DNA from: Acutalibacteraceae bacterium
Lineage (GTDB): Bacteria; Bacillota; Clostridia; Oscillospirales; Acutalibacteraceae
Assembly (NCBI GenBank): GCA_045642705.1
Contig: JAZUJK010000007.1
Span: 31,736-95,735 of the forward strand
Length of the DNA stretch: 64,000 nucleotides
Direction of reading: 5' to 3'
The translations under genes and the position numbers were made by a program. Below, one piece after another: positions 44,190 to 52,751 of the stretch (the first letter of the stretch is position 1; every line of letters starts with the position of its first letter). The notes under the pieces were generated by a model, which was not told the DNA's origin, made no database searches, and was given only the letters and a program-made list of their open reading frames with translations.

Positions 44190-46088
44190 CTAAATGCAGA
44201 GTGCTGCACGTTTATTCTCGATAGCCTCAATCATAAGGTCGCCGAGCTTGTCGATATCTTTCTCAACTGTGAAGTTAGCCTCAACCCACTTCTTGGTTCC
44301 AGACTCTCCACGGAGAAGTTCGATAACTTCCTCGGAACCCTCACAGAAAGGCTCAACGCCGAGATATGTATCGATACCAGTTGCTACTACGTAGTTACCG
44401 ATTGATACAGCCTTCTCGGACATCCACTCAGGTGCACAACCTACAAGTGGAATCTGTGAGATATTAATACCCCAGTCATTTGCTATATCTGTTGCAAGGA
44501 TCATCATACGAGAGATATCTACGCATGAGCCCATGTGAAGAATTGGTGGGATACCAACGAGTTCACATACACGACGGAGACCCTCACCGCAGCAGTCCTT
44601 AGCTTCGAGGTCCATAAGACCAGCCTTGGCAGCTGCTTGAGCAGAACATCCAGATACGACAACAATGATGTCGTTCTCGATAAGTTTCTTCATAAGCTCG
44701 ATATGAGCATAGTCAGCACGAACCTTAGGGTTGTTACAACCTACCATTGCAACTGCGCCGCGGATAACACCTGACTTAACTGCATCAACGAGAGGCATCA
44801 TTGTGCCAGTCTCATCAACGTGGCTGTTTGTTACGCCGTCAAGGCACTTCTTGATAGCCTCAACTGAGTAACCTACACGAGCGTTGGTCTTGATGTCAGG
44901 AATATTTACAAGCTCAGGATTACGATTCTTAAAGTTTTCACAAGCAAGCTTTACGATTTCCTTAGCATTTTCTGCTGCTGTCTTGTCTGTGAACTCAATG
45001 AAATCAGAATCAGGCATACGAGCGATTTTGCTTGTTGTAATGAACTTGGTGTGGAAGCACTTGGAAAGAGGTCCGAGTGCTGGGAAGATACACTGTACGT
45101 CAACAACAATTGCTTCGCATGCACCAGTTAGTACAACGTTCTCCTGCTGGAGGAAGTTACCTGCCATTGGAATACCATGACGCATTGCAACTTCATTAGA
45201 TGTACAACATACACCAGCGATGTTGATGCCAGTCGCGCCGTTTGCCTTAGCGAGGGCGATCATCTCTGGGTCCTGTGCATAGAAAACAATCATCTCTGAG
45301 AGTGATGGGTCATGGCCATGAACGATAATATTAACCATGTCCTTCTCCATAACTCCGAGGTTTGCGTGAGTATCAATAGGCTTAGGTGTACCGAAAAGTA
45401 CATCTGAGAACTCTGTACCCATCATTGAACCGCCCCAGCCGTCTGACAAACCGGCGCGGAGTGAATGCTTGATAAGAGCTTCTGGAAGTGAAGAACATCC
45501 CATATGTGTCATATGGAGAGCCTGTGATACCTCGCGGTCAATTGCGCGTGGTAAAATGTCAGCCTCTTCCCAGAGTTTTCTTGTATGCTCTGGTGCACGC
45601 TCTGTGAAACGAAGATTTCCGAATGGCTTACCATATTCGAGAAGTCCTGTCTCTGCTACTTCATGTGCGATATCATAGATGTCGCGACCTTCTGTAGCGA
45701 TTCCCCACTCACCAGCAATCTTTATTAGCTTGTCTGGATCCTTTACTTGGTAAGCACCATCTTCTGATGTGCTATATAGAGTATGTGCGATTGAGCGGCC
45801 GTGGTCTGAATGAGTTGCAGAACCGCCAGCTGTAAATCTCAAGTAGTTACGAGCAACTATACCGTGAGCATCGCATCCGCATATTCCGCGCGGTGACTTA
45901 GGTGTTATACGGCAAGGTCCCATACTACAGATTCGGCAACAAATACCCTGCTCGCCAAACTTACAATGTGGAGTCTGGTTTTCTACACGTTGTTGCCAAG
46001 AGTCAGCTCCAACTTTCTTGCCTGTATCAAGCAAGGCCTGAGTTGCAGCTTCCATCTCTTCAATTGAAATAAGTTTATCCCAATTCAC
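44190..46088 (-). CDS. acsA: Anaerobic Ni-Fe carbon monoxide dehydrogenase catalytic subunit
   Basis: B/D-cluster motif HCKFGEQGICCRICSMGPCRI and downstream C-cluster Cys/His blocks (HGHD, GVCCT, GCNN, MGSCVD). I set the start at the GTG (46088), 7 nt after AGGAGG. The ORF track TTG (46106) contains that RBS. Confidence 0.9.
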   Translation of the reverse strand: MNWDKLISIEEMEAATQALLDTGKKVGADSWQQRVENQTPHCKFGEQGICCRICSMGPCRITPKSPRGICGCDAHGIVARNYLRFTAGGSATHSDHGRSIAHTLYSTSEDGAYQVKDPDKLIKIAGEWGIATEGRDIYDIAHEVAETGLLEYGKPFGNLRFTERAPEHTRKLWEEADILPRAIDREVSQALHMTHMGCSSLPEALIKHSLRAGLSDGWGGSMMGTEFSDVLFGTPKPIDTHANLGVMEKDMVNIIVHGHDPSLSEMIVFYAQDPEMIALAKANGATGINIAGVCCTSNEVAMRHGIPMAGNFLQQENVVLTGACEAIVVDVQCIFPALGPLSKCFHTKFITTSKIARMPDSDFIEFTDKTAAENAKEIVKLACENFKNRNPELVNIPDIKTNARVGYSVEAIKKCLDGVTNSHVDETGTMMPLVDAVKSGVIRGAVAMVGCNNPKVRADYAHIELMKKLIENDIIVVVSGCSAQAAAKAGLMDLEAKDCCGEGLRRVCELVGIPPILHMGSCVDISRMMILATDIANDWGINISQIPLVGCAPEWMSEKAVSIGNYVVATGIDTYLGVEPFCEGSEEVIELLRGESGTKKWVEANFTVEKDIDKLGDLMIEAIENKRAALCI

Positions 46089-46180
46089 TGATGTAACCTC
46101 CTGCAAAATAATTTTTTAAAATTAACCAATTAATATTTTATCAAATGTAATTAATAAAAGCCTTACCTCGTTTTGTGTAA

Positions 46181-46214
46181 AAATAAGAAAAGCGCGCTAC
46201 AAAGTGTAGCGCGC
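46181..46214 (-). terminator. Intrinsic terminator separating the DUF362 operon from the acs operon
   Basis: The stem GCGCGCTACA / TGTAGCGCGC (46192-46201 / 46205-46214) is followed on the minus strand by UUUUCUUAUUUUU. Confidence 0.7.
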
Positions 46215-46238
46215 TTTTATCAAGAGCAAAATATCAAA

Positions 46239-47942
46239 TTACTTATTCTGTCCGTGCTTGTAATTCATATTGATTGGAAGTGGGAGTGCACAGAGAAGGA
46301 TGTATGCCTGATTAATAATCTGACGGCACTTCTCAATTGGTCCCATCTTAGGAAGTGGATAAGGAACGAAATCCTTCTTCATATCAGCCTTAGAGAGCTT
46401 CTTTGGAATATCAAATACACGGTCATCATGTGAGATACGAGGAGCATCTACATATCTGCCACCAGCGATTGTCTTCATTCTCTTGAGAATCATCTTGATA
46501 AGACCAAAGCCGGTTGGAAGAAGGTTGCTATTGGATGGAGATACGATTGGGATAAGAGCGCCACCTGCCATGCAGATGAGTGATGCGTTCTTAGCTGGGT
46601 CGCAACAACCTGTTGCTTTCCAGAAGCAGATATCGCCAACCTGTGCAAGTGTGCAGTTACCCATACCAAACTTCTTGATAGGAAGAGCTGCGAGATCTTC
46701 CTTAGTATATGGCTTACCATTCTTATCGAACCAGTAACGAACACCATTGATTGGAATACCTGGGCCCTCGATTACACATACTTTAAGCTTCTCGCCCTTC
46801 ATTGACTTCTTGTGATTGAAGAAATCAAGACCGAACTTGATAGATGCAAGGCATCCGCCCATACAAGCCTGCTCAATTTCAAGAGCAAGTTCAGGTGTAA
46901 CAGCATTTGGATCTGTGATCTTAGGTGCACCTGGAAGTGTATGGCCAACTACTGCCATGAGGTTAGGGAATTCACGTGCTGTCTTTTCATCAAGAAGTGA
47001 TGAAATTGCAGGACGGAATTTTGTAACAGTTGTGTCACCAATAATCTCAACTGATGGATCACCAAAGTTACGCTTTGTAGCCTCAATCATGAGCTTATTC
47101 TTCTCTGGATCAAAGCCCATCATATATGTTGTAATTCTGTCTGCTTCAACAGAGTTGTTAGATACAACAATCTTGCCAACCTTAACTGGGTCAACTGGTG
47201 ATGGTGTATTACCCTCACCACCGATGATACCATCGATTACTGTGAGGTCAGGCTTGAAGAGATAGAGAAGGTCAGCGAGTTTCTTATCGATATCGTGTGT
47301 GTGATTACGCTCACGGAGGAAGTATGGAATTGTACCCATAGCATTCTTGAAGCCAAGTGTTACGCCTGTGTAGAGGTTAGTCTTCATCTTAGGTACGGAT
47401 ACATAGAATGCTTCGCCCTGTACAACCATGTCGAGAATCTCTGGAAGATAAACTTCCTTCATAACCTCAGCCTTAGGAAGAATGTAGCGAACAACTGGCT
47501 GTGTCTCGAGAGCTACGAGACCAGTGTTATAGTACTTAGCAATCTTGTCATATCCAGCAACTTTGAAAGCAACCTCTGTAGGATAAGGCTTACCAGCTGA
47601 CTCAACAATTGTGATATTGTCTGTGTACTTCTTGAGCCACGCGATAACTGCCTCAAATACACGTGGGTCAGTATTTTCTGGATAGTCCTTCTTGTCGAGG
47701 CCAGAATTGTGATAAACGAAAACGAGGTTTGGCTTTACAAGAACCTGCTTGTAATTCTTGAGATTCTTGGCAAAATCAGTCTTGGCATTGAGGTCATCGA
47801 GACCTGCCCATACTGTTTCACGAATAGCCTTGATGTCAGGACGATTAAAGTACTTCTTAGTACCATAATTCTTAGGAAGGCTACAGAAGTTATTCATGTA
47901 GTCCATTTTAGGTGCGTCCTTTATAAATACGTAACTTGCCAT
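46239..47942 (-). CDS. Long DUF362-domain protein with a Cys-rich C-terminal extension
   Basis: Residues ~60-330 show the DUF362 pattern: VLVKPNLV...ENTDPRVFEAVIAWL...IVESAG, PKMKTNLYTGVTLGFKNAMG, and VIDGIIGGEGNTPSPVDPV...VVSNNSVEADR. Residues ~330-567 are extra, with CMGGC and NC...C...GCC...C. Confidence 0.6.
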   Translation of the reverse strand: MASYVFIKDAPKMDYMNNFCSLPKNYGTKKYFNRPDIKAIRETVWAGLDDLNAKTDFAKNLKNYKQVLVKPNLVFVYHNSGLDKKDYPENTDPRVFEAVIAWLKKYTDNITIVESAGKPYPTEVAFKVAGYDKIAKYYNTGLVALETQPVVRYILPKAEVMKEVYLPEILDMVVQGEAFYVSVPKMKTNLYTGVTLGFKNAMGTIPYFLRERNHTHDIDKKLADLLYLFKPDLTVIDGIIGGEGNTPSPVDPVKVGKIVVSNNSVEADRITTYMMGFDPEKNKLMIEATKRNFGDPSVEIIGDTTVTKFRPAISSLLDEKTAREFPNLMAVVGHTLPGAPKITDPNAVTPELALEIEQACMGGCLASIKFGLDFFNHKKSMKGEKLKVCVIEGPGIPINGVRYWFDKNGKPYTKEDLAALPIKKFGMGNCTLAQVGDICFWKATGCCDPAKNASLICMAGGALIPIVSPSNSNLLPTGFGLIKMILKRMKTIAGGRYVDAPRISHDDRVFDIPKKLSKADMKKDFVPYPLPKMGPIEKCRQIINQAYILLCALPLPINMNYKHGQNK

Positions 47943-47956
47943 ACTAACTGCTCCTT

Positions 47957-48796
47957 TTATTTTTTTAGTAACTGGATATACTTTGGTATTGCTTGTTCAA
48001 AGTTTACCCCGTACCAATTATAATTTTCTTCTTTCAGTGTGCATCTCATAGACTCGAGAGTATATTCGACTGCAACAACCAGTGCATCAGCAACAGAGAG
48101 GTCGTTCATAAGAGCGCCTGTGAAACTGGATGCAAATATATCGCCAGTGCCATGGAAAGAAACTGGAAGTTTCTCGTTGTAGTACTCAAAGAATTCATCC
48201 TTTTCCTTGTCATAACACATAACGCCGAGTTTGCCGTCCTCAAAGGACATGCCGGTGAGGACAGAGTAGCGAGGGCCAAGCGCGCCAAGCTTCTTCAAAA
48301 TATTTTCTATGTAGTCGCGGCTATATCCCTCGCCTACATACTCCTCACCTAGCATAAAGCAAGCCTCGGTGAGGTTAGGTACAACAACATCCGCCTTGGC
48401 ACATACAGTTCCCATTGCCTTGGCAAATTCTGGTGTAAAGCCCTTGTAGAGACAGCCATTATCGGCCATTGCTGGATCTACAACTATGCATGTCTTATCG
48501 GACTTGAAATCATCAAAGAATTTCTTAACAAGGTCAATCTGCTCAAAAGAACCGAGATAACCTGTATATATTGCATCAAAGTTAAATTTTTCCTTTTTCC
48601 AATGCTCTGAAATAGGCGTAATTTCACCTGTCAAATCATGGAAGGTAAAGCCCTCCTTGAATGCTGTATGAGTTGATAAAACTGCTGTCGGCAAGATAGC
48701 AGCCTCCACGCCTGCTGCGGAAATAATTGGAAGTGCAACAGTTAGAGAACATTTACCAACGCATGATATGTCTTGAATACTAACGATTCTTTTCAT
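47957..48796 (-). CDS. pdxK: Pyridoxal/pyridoxine/pyridoxamine kinase (ribokinase superfamily)
   Basis: VSIQDISCVGKCSLTVALPIISAAGVE..., DAIYTGYLGS, VVDPAMADNG and the anion-hole motif FHGTGDIFAS. The start ATG overlaps the EamA stop (ATGA). The ORF track start is 48808. Confidence 0.8.
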   Translation of the reverse strand: MKRIVSIQDISCVGKCSLTVALPIISAAGVEAAILPTAVLSTHTAFKEGFTFHDLTGEITPISEHWKKEKFNFDAIYTGYLGSFEQIDLVKKFFDDFKSDKTCIVVDPAMADNGCLYKGFTPEFAKAMGTVCAKADVVVPNLTEACFMLGEEYVGEGYSRDYIENILKKLGALGPRYSVLTGMSFEDGKLGVMCYDKEKDEFFEYYNEKLPVSFHGTGDIFASSFTGALMNDLSVADALVVAVEYTLESMRCTLKEENYNWYGVNFEQAIPKYIQLLKK

Positions 48797-49722
48797 TGCT
48801 CGATCCATCTCTCTTCGATTTCTGTTTCTTTATTGTTTCCAGGTATCTGCGACAAAATCACAGCCCCGAACATTATAAGGCAACCGAGATATTCTCTTGG
48901 CTCCATTTTCTCATGTAAAATAATTGCTCCTGACAGTGTGGCAAATACAGACTCGAGACACATAAGCAGTGATACGAGAGTTGTATTTGCTCCCTTCTGG
49001 GCAAATACTTGCAATGTATACGCGACGCCGCTGGACATTATCGCGGTATATAGGAGCGGTCCTATGCTGCTCCTTATCATGTCCCAAGTTGGGACCTGAT
49101 GCGATATCAGCATGAATATCGCCGATACGACCGCCGCCACCGCGAACTGATAGCATGACAGCCGCGTCTCATCAACAGTCTCCACATAGTGTGCAACAAG
49201 AAGCATTTGAATGGTAAACATTATTGCACATCCCAGCAAATAGATGTCTGTTGTCTCAATCTTAAATCCATCCTTGATGCATAGCAGATATAGGCCTATT
49301 ACGGCAATGACGACTGCCGCCCACACACGTGGCGATTGCTTTCTTCCCAGAAAGATTGAGAAAAGTGGGATAAGTACAACATAGAGAGTGGTGATAAATC
49401 CTGACTTTCCTGCGCCAGATGCAATTCCAAGTTGTTGGAGATTCATAGCAAATCCGAGCGATATTCCACAGAGTGTTCCACCTACGAACAAATCGCGATT
49501 GGAATGCTTATAATCTGGCTGAAAATCTGGGTTCTTCTTACGCACTTTATCAAAGACAAGCACAATAATAGCCAGGAACCATATGGCAATAAAATTCCTG
49601 GACGCATTAAAAGCAAAGGCCGGCATTGAATCGGCGCCCATATACTGAGCAACAAATGCCGTACCCCATATTATCGCTGCTACCAGCGGGAAAAGTGTCT
49701 GTCTAAGTGATAAGTTATTCAT
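48793..49722 (-). CDS. EamA/DMT superfamily transporter
   Basis: 309 aa with 10 TM spans in two halves. It is the first gene after the leader terminator. Confidence 0.65.
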   Translation of the reverse strand: MNNLSLRQTLFPLVAAIIWGTAFVAQYMGADSMPAFAFNASRNFIAIWFLAIIVLVFDKVRKKNPDFQPDYKHSNRDLFVGGTLCGISLGFAMNLQQLGIASGAGKSGFITTLYVVLIPLFSIFLGRKQSPRVWAAVVIAVIGLYLLCIKDGFKIETTDIYLLGCAIMFTIQMLLVAHYVETVDETRLSCYQFAVAAVVSAIFMLISHQVPTWDMIRSSIGPLLYTAIMSSGVAYTLQVFAQKGANTTLVSLLMCLESVFATLSGAIILHEKMEPREYLGCLIMFGAVILSQIPGNNKETEIEERWIEQ

Positions 49723-49769
49723 GCATATTATTCTATATCAAAGGTTACATAAAATCAAATATATAATAT

Positions 49770-49801
49770 AAAAAAAATGGCGGTAGCTTTTCGCTACCGC
49801 C
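49770..49801 (-). terminator. Intrinsic terminator at the end of a ~245-nt leader or small transcript
   Basis: GGCGGUAGC-GAAAA-GCUACCGCC is followed by A-U8 on the minus strand, 48 nt upstream of the EamA start. Confidence 0.75.
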
Positions 49802-50014
49802 TCGTAATTACTTCATTGGAGTTTACCTCATCAATGTATTTTGATTAGAAGCTAAACTAGATGTCCTTTTGGACTCACCCTTTCATTATTATTTCAATGA
49901 AACATCTGGTGGATTTTCCTCATTTAAAATCATTTCAATCAACTCCGTATTAGTTAATCAAAACCTCTTTGTGCATTGGACTCAGTCCTTTCTATGAACT
50001 GTCTTTGTCTTTCT
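49802..50014 (-). promoter_or_regulatory. Unclassified leader RNA or sRNA upstream of eamA-pdxK-DUF362
   Basis: It lies between a consensus promoter and the terminator. It contains the small hairpins GGAC-UGA-GUCC, GUCC-AAAA-GGAC and UUUCAUU-N8-AAUGAAA. It also contains a 14-codon mini-ORF (49933-49889, MILNEENPPDVSLK) with GGAG 9 nt upstream. It matches no riboswitch class I can recognise. Confidence 0.3.
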
Positions 50015-50020
50015 GTCTTC

Positions 50021-50049
50021 ACTATATACCATTCAATCTGATATGTCAA
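50021..50049 (-). promoter_or_regulatory. Promoter of the leader/eamA-pdxK-DUF362 unit
   Basis: TTGACA (50049-50044), 17 nt, TATAGT (50026-50021), located 70 nt downstream of the Na/Pi transporter stop. Confidence 0.55.
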
Positions 50050-50118
50050 CAAAATTCACAAAAAATAGTTTGACAACTTTTAAACAATTGTGAAACTTGC
50101 ACAACGGTTTGTTTCACA

Positions 50119-51777
50119 TTATATTGTTTGTTCATTTACAGGAGGTGCATCTAGTCCGTTGTAATGATATCTAACCTTAGCAGCCTGCGCAATATTAAGA
50201 GCGTGGTCTGCTACACGTTCGAGATCGGTCAGTGTCTCAACGAAGATCATACCTGATGATGATTCACAGAGATTTTCATTTAGACGATCAAAGTGAGACT
50301 CCTTCATAACTTCTACAAGGTCATCTATTGCTGCCTCTTGTAGATAGATATTGTTATATGCCTCTTGAGATGGTTCGAAGAGATGTACACAAGCATCATC
50401 AAGGATATGTATAACCATAGTTATGAGCTCTTTCAGTTCAACCATTGCTGCAGGAGAGAACTTTTTATCCTCATCTATCATACGGTTGGCATAATCAATG
50501 AGGTTCTCAGCGTGGTCGCCGATACGCTCAAGGTCAGTCAAAACGTGATAGAGGTGACCAGCGTGCTTCGCATCCTTATCAGTCATCTTCATAGCAGATG
50601 CCTTAATAAGTGCATCTGTAATTGCCTTGTTTAGATAGTCAATCGTAAACTCGGTATCCATAAAGTCATCTTTATCAAATACCTTGTCTGAGAAGAATGT
50701 ATCTGTTGCGATCTTGAGGTTCTGTTTGGTGAGAGATTCCATACGACGAACCTCTGCATCAATTTGCTCAATAAGAATATCTGATGAAGCAAGACCTGCC
50801 TCTGTAATGTACTCAAGCTTTGCCTCATTATTCTCTTCATCATCGCCTCTTATAATCTTGTGTGAGAGCCATGCGATAAATGGAGCAATTGGGAATGTAA
50901 CAAGACACATAACAATACTGAATATAGTATTCGCATTAGCCATCTGACGGCTAGGATTGTCCGATGTCATTTGAAGAACATCAATGATTTGTGGGAAAAG
51001 TAAAACTGCAAGCGTAAATACAATTGCACCAATAACTTCAATTTCTACTACAATTGCTGCTACACGCTTGGCATCTTTACGTCCGCCTATTGATGCAAGA
51101 ATCGGTGCAATAGAAGCACCAATATTCATACCAAGCATTATAAATAGAGCTGGTCTAAAATCCATAGCTCCAGAAAGCAAGAGCATCTGGAGAATACCTA
51201 CTGATGCAGATACAGACTGCATGATTGTTGTGAATACAACTCCAAATAGTATTCCAAGCAATGGGTTAGATAATCCCTTTACCAAATCCAAGAACCACTC
51301 AAGTTCCCTAAGTGGCTCCATCGATGTTTTCATAAGACCGAGGCCCATAAATAATACGCCGAGGCTCGCAATAACATTTCCGAAATACTTAACCTTTTGG
51401 TTTTTAAAAAACATACTACATACAACGCCAAAGAAGATTAAGAGAGGTGCTTGTTCCGAAATGTTAAAAGCAATAAGTTGTCCAGTGATAGTTGTACCTA
51501 TCTTGGCGCCAATAATAATTCCAACGGATCGTTCCAGTTGCATAAGACCCGCGTTTACAAATCCAACTACCATTGCACAGATCGCATTGGAACTCTGGAT
51601 AAGCGCTGTAAGTCCTGCACCTACAAGTACTGCAACAAATCGTTTTTCAGTCAGTTTGGCAAGAATCTTTTTAAGATAGTTTCCTGCCATATCTTTTAGG
51701 TTTTCGCCCATTTCGTTCATACCAAAGATGAACATCGCGATACCGCCAAGAAGAGTTGCTACATTAGTAAAGGTCAT
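50119..51777 (-). CDS. Na+/phosphate cotransporter family protein with C-terminal PhoU-like domains
   Basis: The N-terminal half has the duplicated Na_Pi_cotrans pattern (LLGGIAMFIFGM..., QSSNA, QSVSA). The C-terminal ~220 aa contain two PhoU-like helical repeats (ERIGDHAEN, ERVADHALN). Confidence 0.8.
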   Translation of the reverse strand: MTFTNVATLLGGIAMFIFGMNEMGENLKDMAGNYLKKILAKLTEKRFVAVLVGAGLTALIQSSNAICAMVVGFVNAGLMQLERSVGIIIGAKIGTTITGQLIAFNISEQAPLLIFFGVVCSMFFKNQKVKYFGNVIASLGVLFMGLGLMKTSMEPLRELEWFLDLVKGLSNPLLGILFGVVFTTIMQSVSASVGILQMLLLSGAMDFRPALFIMLGMNIGASIAPILASIGGRKDAKRVAAIVVEIEVIGAIVFTLAVLLFPQIIDVLQMTSDNPSRQMANANTIFSIVMCLVTFPIAPFIAWLSHKIIRGDDEENNEAKLEYITEAGLASSDILIEQIDAEVRRMESLTKQNLKIATDTFFSDKVFDKDDFMDTEFTIDYLNKAITDALIKASAMKMTDKDAKHAGHLYHVLTDLERIGDHAENLIDYANRMIDEDKKFSPAAMVELKELITMVIHILDDACVHLFEPSQEAYNNIYLQEAAIDDLVEVMKESHFDRLNENLCESSSGMIFVETLTDLERVADHALNIAQAAKVRYHYNGLDAPPVNEQTI

Positions 51778-51788
51778 TTATATCCTCC

Positions 51789-52751
51789 TTAAATGGATAT
51801 CTCGTGTGCCATTCTGTATGTATTGGCATCAAGTTCTTTCGTCATAGCAAGTGCTACATCAATCGGATAGTCGACGATAGCGCCGGCGTTCTCTGCAACA
51901 ACACAGCTCTTATCGTCATATTTGAGGAGACGTGTTGCATAGTTGCCCATACGTGATGCAAGAACACGGTCCTTGACTGTTGGGGAACCGCCACGCTGAA
52001 CGTGGCCCAGTATTGTTGCACGTGATTCAACGCCGGTGCGCTCCTCAATAAGCTTAGCCATTTCTGTTGCGTCTCCGCAGCCCTCAGCTACGATTACAAC
52101 GAAATGGCGCTTGCCGGTAGTGATAGTGTGCTTCATTACGTCAACAACATCTTTTTCAAAATCATATTCGAACTCTGGGACAAGGATAATTGTTGCACCG
52201 ACAGCAATACCTGCGTAGAGTGCGATATAACCAGCATCACGGCCCATAACCTCAACTACTGAGCAACGGGAGTGTGACTCTGTTGTATCACGAATTTTAT
52301 CGACCATGTCCATAACAGTGTTCATTGCTGTGTCATAGCCGATAGTATTGTCTGTACATGCGATATCATTATCAATTGTTCCAGGGATTCCAATGCATGT
52401 AATGCCGTGGTGAGCGAGCGCCTGTGCGCCACGGAATGAACCGTCACCGCCGATTACGATGAGGCCCTCTATTCCAAGTGCATGGCACATCTCGGCAGCC
52501 TTAGCCTGTCCCTCAGGTGTCTTGAACGCCTCGGAACGTGCGCTGTGGAGAATAGTACCACCACGGTTGATGATATTGGATACTGAACGCAAATTCATCT
52601 CGACAACATCGCCGGTCATGAGTCCTTCATAACCATTGTTTATGCCGAGAATGTGCATGTCATTTTCAATTGCTGTACGAACTACCGCACGAATCGCAGC
52701 GTTCATTCCTGGCGCATCACCGCCACTTGTCAATACAGCTATAGTTTTCAT
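51789..52751 (-). CDS. pfkA: ATP-dependent 6-phosphofructokinase
   Basis: MKTIAVLTSGGDAPGMNAAIRAVVR, IGGDGS, PGTIDND and MGR are the canonical PfkA motifs. 320 aa. Confidence 0.9.
   Translation of the reverse strand: MKTIAVLTSGGDAPGMNAAIRAVVRTAIENDMHILGINNGYEGLMTGDVVEMNLRSVSNIINRGGTILHSARSEAFKTPEGQAKAAEMCHALGIEGLIVIGGDGSFRGAQALAHHGITCIGIPGTIDNDIACTDNTIGYDTAMNTVMDMVDKIRDTTESHSRCSVVEVMGRDAGYIALYAGIAVGATIILVPEFEYDFEKDVVDVMKHTITTGKRHFVVIVAEGCGDATEMAKLIEERTGVESRATILGHVQRGGSPTVKDRVLASRMGNYATRLLKYDDKSCVVAENAGAIVDYPIDVALAMTKELDANTYRMAHEISI

What the first reader, a model, noticed from the sequence alone, without database searches (positions are those of the whole stretch)
46239..50049. Leader-controlled operon coupling a DMT transporter, pyridoxal kinase and an oversized DUF362 protein
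The arrangement on the minus strand is as follows:
- A promoter at 50049-50021, a ~245-nt leader and a terminator at 49801-49770.
- The EamA transporter gene.
- pdxK, with an ATGA overlap at 48793-48796.
- A 14-nt gap, then the DUF362 gene.
- A terminator at 46214-46181.

A salvage kinase for B6 vitamers co-translated with a transporter suggests uptake and trapping of a B6-like compound. The third gene has no assigned biochemistry and is almost twice the usual DUF362 length. The grouping hints at a role for DUF362 in vitamer or cofactor processing. It also provides a functional handle on a large uncharacterised family.
Basis: inference. Interest (0 to 1): 0.6.

Follow-up and report, generated by a model that had tools for sequence, protein, structure and literature searches.

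The report
Juxtaposed small RNA, B6-salvage pair, DUF362
The sequence features are real, but they are three separate neighbours (an independent ribosome-site-rich small RNA, a transporter/pyridoxal-kinase pair in a vitamin-B6-dependent gut bacterium, and an unrelated DUF362 enzyme gene), so the layout gives no functional handle on DUF362.

Summary

The interpretation mostly fails.
- **The "leader" is an independent RNA.** It belongs to an RNA family not in Rfam, found in 18 of 150 genera of the same bacterial family. Each copy has its own promoter and terminator. The downstream gene is convergent in 7 of 16 cases and unrelated in the others. The RNA is built from sites complementary to the 16S rRNA tail, often followed by AUG, 1-3 codons and a stop.
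- **eamA has its own promoter-like site.** It lies after the terminator in 12 of 12 genus members tested.
- **The kinase is a true PdxK type.** It has the GTGD motif and scores above the NCBIfam cut-off. The genome lacks PdxS, PdxJ and PdxH, so B6 uptake plus trapping is plausible.
- **The gene pairing is local.** EamA-PdxK adjacency exists only in the genus Candidatus Limimonas (0 of 69 PdxK loci elsewhere).
- **DUF362-long is not linked to B6.** It lies near pdxK or eamA in none of 58 loci beyond the genus and its nearest relatives. This 1.5-Mb genome carries four paralogs.

The parts
50088..50104 (-). Palindrome TTGTGCA-AGT-TTCACAA upstream of the RNA promoter; possible operator
   Evidence: Read directly from the sequence. 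Similar palindromes sit at the same place in genus relatives, e.g. TTGTGCAAAATGCACAA in L005. Function was not tested.
50021..50049 (-). Promoter of the small RNA (TTGACA-17-TATAGT)
   Evidence: Matches 11 of 12 consensus positions. It is conserved across the genus, and equivalent strong promoters precede the RNA in other genera.
49770..50014 (-). ~245-nt independently transcribed RNA made of 16S-tail-complementary sites and mini-ORFs (the 'leader')
   Evidence: No Rfam family matches at E<=1. The fold z-score is -4.55. Identity across 16 genus genomes is ~75%. Covariance model R1 finds it in 19 of 151 genomes of the family, where it sits in unrelated and often convergent contexts.
49974..49992 (-). 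Unit A, GAAAGGACUGAGUCCAAUG: a 16S-tail-complementary site plus AUG
   Evidence: Predicted duplex with GGAUCACCUCCUUUCU is -15.0 kcal/mol, against -8.5 and -11.1 for two genuine ribosome-binding sites of this window.
49950..49976 (-). Mini-ORF 1 (MHKEVLIN*); exactly 8 sense codons in all 11 genus leaders that carry it
49889..49933 (-). Mini-ORF 2 (MILNEENPPDVSLK*); conserved as M-I-x-x-E-[DE]-N-P-P-D-V
   Evidence: Present in 8 of 13 genus leaders (a variant form in L014 brings this to 9), with changes mostly at third codon positions. Related E-P-Q / P-P peptides open the RNA in other genera (read by eye).
49866..49884 (-). Unit C, GAAAGGGUGAGUCCAAAAG: a 16S-tail-complementary site without a start codon
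   Evidence: Predicted duplex is -15.3 kcal/mol; 0.6% of composition shuffles do as well. It is the most conserved element of the family.
49808..49829 (-). Unit D, GAGGUAAACUCCA + AUG AAG UAA: a two-codon mini-ORF ending 6 nt before the terminator stem
   Evidence: A two-codon ORF ends 6-9 nt before the terminator in 13 of 13 genus leaders.
49770..49801 (-). Intrinsic terminator of the RNA
   Evidence: The stem shows compensatory changes across the genus (pairs 239/251 and 241/249 changed on both sides).
49730..49758 (-). Promoter-like site for eamA-pdxK (TTGATT-17-TAGAAT); the -10 hexamer ends 7 nt before the eamA ATG, so the mRNA is probably leaderless
   Evidence: Matches 9 of 12 positions. 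A site of >=9/12 with a 17-nt spacer exists at the same place in 12 of 12 genus members tested, with per-sequence shuffle P of 0.01-0.24. Members whose -10 lies 7-8 nt from the ATG have no ribosome-binding site; those with a 29-75-nt 5'UTR have one.
48793..49722 (-). eamA: DMT/EamA-family transporter, 309 aa; candidate B6-vitamer transporter (inferred)
   Evidence: Pfam EamA with two stretches. It is always next to pdxK in the genus. Homologs at ~50% identity elsewhere are not next to pdxK.
47957..48796 (-). pdxK: pyridoxal/pyridoxamine kinase, 279 aa counted from the ATG at 48796
   Evidence: NCBIfam PRK07105 scores 305 bits against a cut-off of 231. The GTGD motif is present. It is the only kinase of this family in the genome. 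PdxR regulators flank orthologs in 9 of 69 loci.
46239..47942 (-). DUF362-long gene, 567 aa: DUF362 domain (residues 67-271) plus a family-specific Cys-bearing C-terminal half
   Evidence: invariant C360, C364, C430, C446, C447. The C-terminal half has only 46 cluster representatives in 1.84 billion proteins, and those of ~530 aa or more match at about residues 280-550 (the rest look like fragments). It has its own ribosome-binding site, AAAGGAG.
46188..46218 (-). Terminator that ends the eamA-pdxK-DUF362 transcript

Best explanation
The stretch is three neighbours, not one leader-controlled module.

1. **An independent small RNA (about 50014 to 49770).** It has its own strong promoter and terminator.
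   - Shown: it is built from sites with near-complete complementarity to the 3' tail of 16S rRNA.
   - Shown: several sites are followed by AUG and a reading frame of 2 to 14 codons. The last frame ends 6 nt before the terminator.
   - Inferred: it most likely works by loading ribosomes or 30S subunits, not by sensing a B6 compound.

2. **The eamA-pdxK pair.**
   - Inferred: it is transcribed from its own promoter-like site, 7 nt before the eamA ATG, probably as a leaderless mRNA.
   - Shown: the two genes overlap by ATGA, which would couple their translation.
   - Shown: PdxK is the only route to PLP in this genome, which lacks PdxS, PdxJ and PdxH.
   - Inferred (about 45%): EamA takes up a B6 vitamer, which PdxK then traps by phosphorylation.

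3. **The DUF362-long gene.**
   - Inferred: it is co-transcribed here, because only a 14-nt gap precedes it and it has its own ribosome-binding site.
   - Shown by comparison: its position is genus-level gene order, not a functional link.
   - It is one of four paralogs of a patchily distributed enzyme family of unknown reaction. The family is related at Pfam-clan level to the N-terminal domain of lactate racemase LarA.
For: **RNA independence**
- No Rfam family matches.
- Covariance model R1 hits 19 of 151 genomes, representing 18 of 150 genera of the family.
- In 16 loci from other genera the RNA has its own TTGACA-type promoter and its own terminator. The next gene is convergent in 7 (L254, L259, L261, L263, L266, L271, L272). 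In the rest it is functionally unrelated.
- In one genus member a 3.4-kb formate-lyase-like insertion separates the RNA from eamA.
- A metagenome relative (L185) carries five tandem units and is followed by its own terminator and non-coding DNA.

**Ribosome-site character**
- Predicted duplexes with the 16S tail are -15 to -19.5 kcal/mol, against -8.5 and -11.1 for real ribosome-binding sites.
- There are 91 such sites against 23 expected from shuffles.
- Mini-ORF regularities are listed.

**Own promoter for eamA**
- 12 of 12 genus members tested have one.
- Presence of a ribosome-binding site tracks the distance from the -10 hexamer to the ATG.

**PdxK and auxotrophy:**

**Synteny limits:**

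**DUF362-long**
- Four long paralogs lie in the own genome.
- It is present in 1 of 301 sampled genomes of the order.
- Neighbours elsewhere are varied, e.g. ddl, argS, mltG, an aldehyde ferredoxin oxidoreductase and a GGDEF-EAL protein; these labels were assigned by eye from the sequences.
Against: - Both transcription start sites, read-through at 49770 and co-transcription of DUF362 are therefore inferred from sequence only.
- **The eamA promoter is individually weak.** It matches 9 of 12 positions, with a shuffle P of 0.15 in this window.
- **RNA and eamA stay adjacent in the genus.** The RNA sits directly upstream of eamA in nearly all genus members. A mini-ORF abutting a terminator is also the geometry expected of a ribosome-dependent attenuator, so some cis effect on eamA-pdxK is not excluded.
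- **The EamA substrate is unsupported outside this genus.** EamA-family proteins are more often exporters (from general knowledge).
- **The 16S rRNA gene is missing from this assembly**. The 16S tail sequence used is the standard Firmicutes one, taken from general knowledge.
Confidence: 0.6

Rival explanations
1. One promoter at 50049 drives a B6-responsive leader (riboswitch or attenuator) that gates a three-gene functional module, in which the DUF362 protein processes a B6-like vitamer or cofactor.
For: - The genes are tightly packed on one strand, with an ATGA overlap and a 14-nt gap.
- The terminator lies 48 nt before eamA.
- The organism is a B6 auxotroph.
- The gene order is kept in most genus members.
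Against: - The RNA family occurs away from any B6 gene, often convergent with its neighbour. It is unique to this one locus in the genome and matches no Rfam family.
- A promoter-like site lies between the terminator and eamA.
- DUF362-long never neighbours pdxK or eamA outside the genus, and PdxK never neighbours it.
- A lipoprotein gene is inserted between pdxK and DUF362 in five genus loci.
- The genome holds four paralogs.
Confidence: 0.06
2. Dual role. The RNA is a free-standing family member, but in this genus it also acts in cis. Ribosomes loaded on the last two-codon mini-ORF would mask the 5' arm of the terminator. Read-through into eamA-pdxK would then rise with ribosome loading or fall with stalling at the Pro-Pro-Asp mini-ORF.
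For: - The stop codon lies 6-9 nt from the terminator stem in 13 of 13 genus leaders. It lies 9 nt or less from the stem in 6 of 11 family members read by eye.
- The N-P-P-D peptide is conserved.
- The RNA sits directly upstream of eamA in nearly all genus members.
Against: - The same geometry is kept where the downstream gene is convergent, so it is not specific to gene control.
- eamA has its own promoter-like site and, in six species, no ribosome-binding site that a read-through transcript could use.
Confidence: 0.2
3. The eamA-pdxK pairing has no B6-transport meaning. EamA would export or import something else (an amino acid, a toxic vitamer, a drug), and it sits next to pdxK through recent gene-order drift in a small genome.
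For: - The pairing is confined to one genus.
- EamA homologs at ~50% identity sit in unrelated contexts.
- The best NCBIfam matches, all far below cut-off, are to exporters such as YedA and RhtA.
- EamA diverges quickly (51-78% identity) while PdxK stays at 68-93%.
Against: - Start/stop overlap or near-abutment is kept in every genus locus that shows both genes.
- The organism is an obligate B6 salvager.
- I did not search for any other B6 transporter in the genome, so this rival remains open.
Confidence: 0.3

Closest known systems
Vitamin salvage pairs of a transporter and a trapping kinase, such as the pdxK-linked PdxU-type ECF substrate components predicted by comparative genomics (recalled from memory, not checked here)
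   Same: A transporter gene is coupled to the B6 salvage kinase in an organism that cannot make PLP de novo. The logic is uptake followed by phosphorylation.
   Different: The transporter here belongs to the DMT/EamA family, which to my knowledge has not been shown to carry B6 in bacteria. The pairing exists in only one genus. In 9 of 69 relatives, pdxK is instead flanked by a PdxR regulator.
Pyridoxal kinases with solved structures: L. plantarum 3h74, PdxK 5zw9 and 2ddm; closest chain 3mbh from Bacteroides thetaiotaomicron
   Same: Ribokinase-superfamily fold family, GTGD motif, and similar length. E-values are 6.9e-57 to 3mbh and 8.3e-28 to 3h74.
   Different: The closest solved chain is deposited as a 'putative phosphomethylpyrimidine kinase'. 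Substrate preference among pyridoxal, pyridoxamine and pyridoxine is untested.
Two-codon minigenes: the axe-txe minigene (PMC8708949), the LEE1 leader minigene (PMC3262186) and the lambda bar minigenes (from memory)
   Same: A strong ribosome-binding site, AUG, one to three sense codons and a stop. Translation of such units affects neighbouring expression or ribosome and tRNA pools.
   Different: Here several units are strung together in one dedicated, separately transcribed and conserved RNA. The ribosome-binding sites extend over the whole 16-nt 16S tail, and some units have AAG in place of AUG.
LarA lactate racemase superfamily (nickel-pincer nucleotide enzymes; PMC11770544)
   Same: DUF362 and the LarA N-terminal domain share Pfam clan CL0471. 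The weak best sensible fold match is the LarA apoprotein 2yjg.
   Different: There is no Lar_N Pfam match and no significant fold hit. The C-terminal half is unique to this family. 17 of 50 DUF362-long genomes lack LarC.
Leader-peptide transcription attenuators (trp, his, and the erm/cat type)
   Same: Short conserved reading frames lie upstream of an intrinsic terminator, including one with a Pro-Pro-Asp stall-prone motif.
   Different: The family is not tied to a downstream gene. No conserved alternative antiterminator pairing was found. A promoter-like site follows the terminator.

Membership tests
Pyridoxal/pyridoxamine kinase (PdxK type, ribokinase superfamily) | Scores above the curated cut-off of a PdxK-type family model | tested here: met
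   NCBIfam PRK07105 'pyridoxamine kinase' scores 305.4 bits against a cut-off of 231.
Pyridoxal/pyridoxamine kinase (PdxK type, ribokinase superfamily) | GTGD motif with the catalytic Asp, instead of the GAGC of ThiD-type kinases | tested here: met
   HGTGDIF aligns with GTGD in 3mbh, 3h74 and 5zw9. The ThiD-like 2i5b and AncC chains have GAGC there. The role of the Asp is taken from general knowledge.
Pyridoxal/pyridoxamine kinase (PdxK type, ribokinase superfamily) | Phosphorylates B6 vitamers | not testable with these tools
   Needs an enzyme assay. Indirect support: PdxR regulators (NF052282, 378 bits against a cut-off of 320) lie next to orthologs in 9 of 69 loci.
HMP/HMP-P kinase ThiD | Scores above the cut-off of the ThiD model | tested here: not met
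   TIGR00097 scores 50.6 bits against a cut-off of 204.95.
DMT / EamA transporter | Two EamA repeats in one ~300-aa polypeptide | tested here: met
   PF00892 matches in two stretches, E 1.3e-28.
B6-vitamer transporter | Conserved linkage to B6 genes across lineages, or measured transport | tested here: not met
   Linkage is seen only within one genus. Transport is not testable here.
DUF362 (PF04015) | Domain match above the gathering score | tested here: met
   119.6 bits against a cut-off of 24, over residues 67-271.
LarA superfamily (nickel-pincer nucleotide enzymes) | Lar_N domain (PF09861) or a clear fold match to LarA | tested here: not met
   Only PF04015 is found. The best LarA fold hit is 2yjg, with E 1.0 and TM 0.17 over 158 columns.
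LarA superfamily (nickel-pincer nucleotide enzymes) | Co-occurrence with the cofactor-maturation gene larC | tested here: inconclusive
   The own genome has LarC but no LarA. LarC is present in 33 of 50 DUF362-long genomes against 77 of 301 in the order background (Fisher P 8e-8, not corrected for phylogeny). 17 of 50 lack it, including a 3.7-Mb record titled 'chromosome: 1'.
Known riboswitch or cis-regulatory RNA (Rfam 15) | Match to a curated covariance model | tested here: not met
   No family matches in the leader at E<=1. The only hit in the region is a terminator-like L20-leader match elsewhere, at 26.7 bits against 58.7.
Cis-acting leader / attenuator of the downstream operon | Consistently upstream of, and co-oriented with, the genes it controls, with no intervening promoter | tested here: not met
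   The downstream gene is convergent in 7 of 16 loci from other genera. A promoter-like site lies between the terminator and eamA in 12 of 12 genus members tested.
Minigene / start-stop elements | Strong ribosome-binding site, then a start codon, at most 3 sense codons, and a stop | tested here: met
   Unit D plus AUG AAG UAA is found in 13 of 13 genus leaders. Two- to three-codon frames recur in the family.
CsrB/RsmZ-type protein-sponge RNA | Repeated A(N)GGA motifs in hairpin loops | tested here: inconclusive
   The conserved core is GGUGAGUCC(A/G)A(A/U)G, not GGA in a loop. Presence of CsrA in the genome was not checked.

The most novel reading that the evidence does not exclude
The 245-nt RNA belongs to an undescribed class of bacterial RNAs that dock several 30S subunits or ribosomes. 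Docking would occur through sites complementary to nearly the whole single-stranded 16S rRNA tail, followed by start-stop mini-frames. The RNA would act as a gauge or buffer of free ribosomes. In this genus its last mini-frame, 6 nt from the terminator, would convert ribosome supply (or Pro-Pro stalling) into read-through that tunes B6 salvage.
Probability: 0.12. Interest if true: 0.8.

Novelty: new member of a known kind. Interest (0 to 1): 0.4.

Why it matters
- **DUF362.** This locus should not be used to annotate DUF362 as a B6-related family, because the adjacency is local gene order. A better, though still weak, lead is the nickel-pincer cofactor. The genome has LarC but no LarA, and LarC is enriched among genomes that carry DUF362-long.
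- **B6 transport.** Bacterial B6 transporters are poorly known. A DMT-family importer, translationally coupled to the only PLP-forming enzyme of an auxotrophic gut genus, is a cheap and testable candidate.
- **The RNA.** The so-called leader adds one more lineage to a recurring, uncatalogued kind of RNA in gut Clostridia: 16S-tail-complementary sites with mini-frames. Earlier notes of this scan reported similar RNAs independently. If these RNAs really hold ribosomes, they would be a new layer of translational control.

Tried and rejected
- **Rfam scan of 45500-52500 at E<=1:** nothing in the leader.
- **RNAalifold on seven genus leaders:** only the terminator showed compensatory changes. Long-range pairs (GGAGUU/AACUCC and GGAC.AUCC/GGGUGAGUCC) were invariant, so they carry no information.
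- **Riboswitch reading:** dropped for three reasons.
  - Module number varies from 2 to 5 among close relatives.
  - Some leaders lack whole modules.
  - The family is not tied to any gene class.
- **Genome-wide motif search in the own genome:** the motif occurs only at this locus, so there is no regulon.
- **Metagenome pattern scan:** 75 of the 80 loci examined looked like chance matches. Four were from the same genus and one (L185) was an informative distant relative.
- **DUF362-long:**
  - No sequence match to any solved structure.
  - The AlphaFold model has mean pLDDT 76.7, with no fold match at E<0.001.
  - The C-terminal half has no Pfam match even at E<=10. It has only 46 cluster representatives, apparently all from this family.
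  - Neighbourhood clustering of 79 loci gave no universal partner.
- **Class-level covariance search:** 2 of 400 genomes hit, using the tool's strict filters and few scored candidates. This is a floor, not a true frequency.

Full report
**Observation**

- The promoter TTGACA-17-TATAGT lies at 50049-50021 and matches 11 of 12 consensus positions.
- A stretch without long ORFs follows, ending at a 9-bp GC-rich hairpin (49801-49779) and a T8 run.
- The EamA ORF is at 49722-48793 and the kinase ORF at 48808-47957.
- The kinase's relatives align from residue 3-5. The probable start is therefore the ATG at 48796, which gives the ATGA overlap.
- After a 14-nt gap comes a 567-aa ORF (47942-46239). PF04015 covers only residues 67-271 of it.
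- A 14-bp terminator lies at 46218-46188.

**Organism and B6 status**

The window lies in a 1.52-Mb, 97%-complete assembly. Record titles of its closest relatives name Candidatus Limimonas, Acutalibacteraceae.
- PdxS (PF01680) and PdxJ (PF03740) are absent from this genome and from 15 genus members. Both searches rang in the expected control genomes.
- PdxH (TIGR00558) is also absent.
- The window's kinase is the only member of its family in the genome.

PLP must therefore come from salvage.

**The kinase**

- It exceeds the curated cut-off of NCBIfam PRK07105, 'pyridoxamine kinase' (305 bits against 231). It is far below the ThiD models.
- Its HGTGDIF segment aligns with the GTGD of solved pyridoxal kinases. 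ThiD-type chains have GAGC at that position.
- Orthologs occur in 262 of 301 sampled genomes of the order.
- In 9 of 69 loci the ortholog lies beside a MocR-type regulator that passes the PdxR model.

**Synteny**

Within the genus:
- The order NaPi-transporter gene, RNA, eamA, pdxK, DUF362-long, cooS is common.
- eamA and pdxK abut or overlap in every locus.
- In five loci a lipoprotein gene sits between pdxK and DUF362-long.
- One member has no DUF362-long within 4 kb downstream (L020).

Outside the genus nothing is kept:
- None of 58 more distant DUF362-long loci has pdxK or eamA within 8 kb.
- None of 29 + 40 PdxK loci from other genera has an EamA-like (E<=1e-3) or DUF362-long neighbour.
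- EamA homologs at ~50% identity sit in unrelated contexts.

Other facts about DUF362-long:
- It has no universal neighbour.
- It occurs in only 1 of 301 sampled genomes of the order.
- It is present four times in this small genome, alongside three short DUF362 genes.
- Two of the paralogs flank small two-helix membrane proteins and lie beside genes that I judged by eye to be aconitase-X-like.

The proposed DUF362-B6 link is therefore unsupported. The eamA-pdxK link is real but genus-specific.

**The 'leader'**

The RNA is about 75% identical across 16 genus genomes. It folds better than shuffles, with z = -4.55, and matches no Rfam family.

Alignment shows a modular build.
- There are 2 to 5 copies of a motif such as GAAAGG(G)UGAGUCC(A/G)A(A/U)G, or GAGGUAAACUCCAAUG.
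- An 8-codon frame is present in all 11 leaders that carry unit A.
- A frame encoding M-I-x-x-E-[DE]-N-P-P-D-V occurs in 8 of 13, with mostly third-position changes.
- A two-codon frame ends 6-9 nt before the terminator in 13 of 13.

The motif is complementary to almost the entire 16-nt 3' tail of 16S rRNA.
- The tail sequence comes from general knowledge, because the assembly has no 16S gene.
- Predicted duplexes are -15 to -19.5 kcal/mol, against -8.5 and -11.1 for two genuine ribosome-binding sites here.
- Such sites are about four times enriched over shuffles: 91 against 23.

**Is it a leader?**

A covariance model of the core finds the RNA in 19 of 151 genomes of the family, covering 18 of 150 genera.
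- In these genomes it has its own near-consensus promoter and its own terminator. Its length ranges from about 150 to 1000 nt.
- The next gene is convergent in 7 of 16 loci.
- Elsewhere the next gene is unrelated. By eye these include a peptidase, NAD synthetase, a phosphoesterase and a lipoprotein.
- A metagenome relative carries five tandem ~80-nt units and is followed by non-coding DNA.
- In one genus member a 3.4-kb insertion separates the RNA from eamA.

Between the terminator and the eamA ATG, 12 of 12 genus members tested have a promoter-like site of >=9/12 with a 17-nt spacer.
- Where the -10 hexamer lies 7-8 nt from the ATG, as in this window, there is no ribosome-binding site. This fits a leaderless mRNA.
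- Where it lies 29-75 nt away, a ribosome-binding site is present.

I conclude that the RNA is a separate gene.

Earlier notes of this scan describe similar 'super-Shine-Dalgarno plus mini-gene' RNAs in other gut Clostridia. I reached the same reading independently, and I treat those notes as leads only.

**DUF362-long**

- The family is very conserved, with 64% mean column identity over 11 diverse members. It has five invariant cysteines in the C-terminal half.
- It has no sequence relative among solved structures.
- The AlphaFold model (mean pLDDT 76.7) has no significant fold match. The only sensible weak one is the LarA apoprotein, which is consistent with the shared Pfam clan.
- The C-terminal half has no Pfam match and appears to occur only in this family.

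A side lead concerns the nickel-pincer cofactor.
- The genome encodes LarC but no LarA.
- LarC is present in 33 of 50 DUF362-long genomes, against 77 of 301 in the order background.
- However, 17 of the 50 lack it, including a 3.7-Mb record titled 'chromosome: 1'. The background is also not phylogenetically matched.

I rate a nickel-pincer role at about 15%.

**Verdict**

- The sequence features are real.
- The 'leader-controlled, three-gene B6 module' reading is mostly wrong.
- What survives is a plausible uptake-and-trap pair (eamA-pdxK) in a B6 auxotroph.
- What emerges is an uncatalogued ribosome-site-rich RNA family.

Noticed in passing
window 50088-50118: The palindrome TTGTGCA-AGT-TTCACAA, nested in TGTGAAAC...GTTTCACA, lies ~40-70 nt upstream of the -35 hexamer of the RNA promoter (TTGACA at 50049-50044). 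Similar palindromes (e.g. TTGTGCAAAATGCACAA) sit at the same place in genus relatives. It may be an operator for a Crp/Fnr- or Rex-like factor that controls the RNA.
   Followed up: partly
own genome C7:15500-23200 (outside the window; the window starts at C7:31736): Two further DUF362-long paralogs flank two small membrane proteins carrying FGFTWW[LV]PL. The same segment is fused to the C-terminus of ~650-aa family members in Christensenellaceae. The paralogs lie next to genes that look, by eye, like aconitase-X (DUF521/DUF126) genes and a peptidase gene.
   Followed up: partly
own genome C7:176518-177333 and C25:5633-6106: LarC, the nickel-insertion step of nickel-pincer cofactor synthesis, is present as two pieces. 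No LarA (Lar_N) homolog exists in the genome. This is an orphan cofactor pathway whose user enzyme is unknown.
   Followed up: partly
L185:620-1225: A metagenome relative of the RNA has five tandem ~80-nt units. Each unit is TTGAAAGGTAAGGTTAACTCCAATG plus a 2-3-codon frame and a small UUCG-type hairpin. The array ends in its own terminator.
   Followed up: partly
L013 / L036 (genus member G013): A ~3.4-kb insertion lies between the RNA's terminator and eamA. It encodes what looks, by eye, like a pyruvate formate-lyase-type enzyme and its activase.
   Followed up: no
L291:3418-4497 and 8 other PdxK loci of the order: A PdxR-type MocR regulator (NF052282, 378 bits) lies next to pdxK in 9 of 69 loci from other genera. 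This indicates how pdxK is probably controlled where the EamA pairing is absent.
   Followed up: partly
window 50050-50119: No terminator-like site lies between the end of the Na/Pi-cotransporter-PhoU gene (stop at 50119) and the RNA promoter. Transcripts of that gene may therefore run into the RNA and end at its terminator.
   Followed up: no
window 49889-49933 and family loci L260, L261, L263, L267, L270, L271: The first longer frame of the RNA encodes related short peptides with an E-P-Q-H, E-P-P or N-P-P-D core, e.g. MGALEPQHLNSFGLIGRSF and MNRLEPPENYQK. The RNA may be dual-function, or may use a stall-prone nascent peptide.
   Followed up: partly
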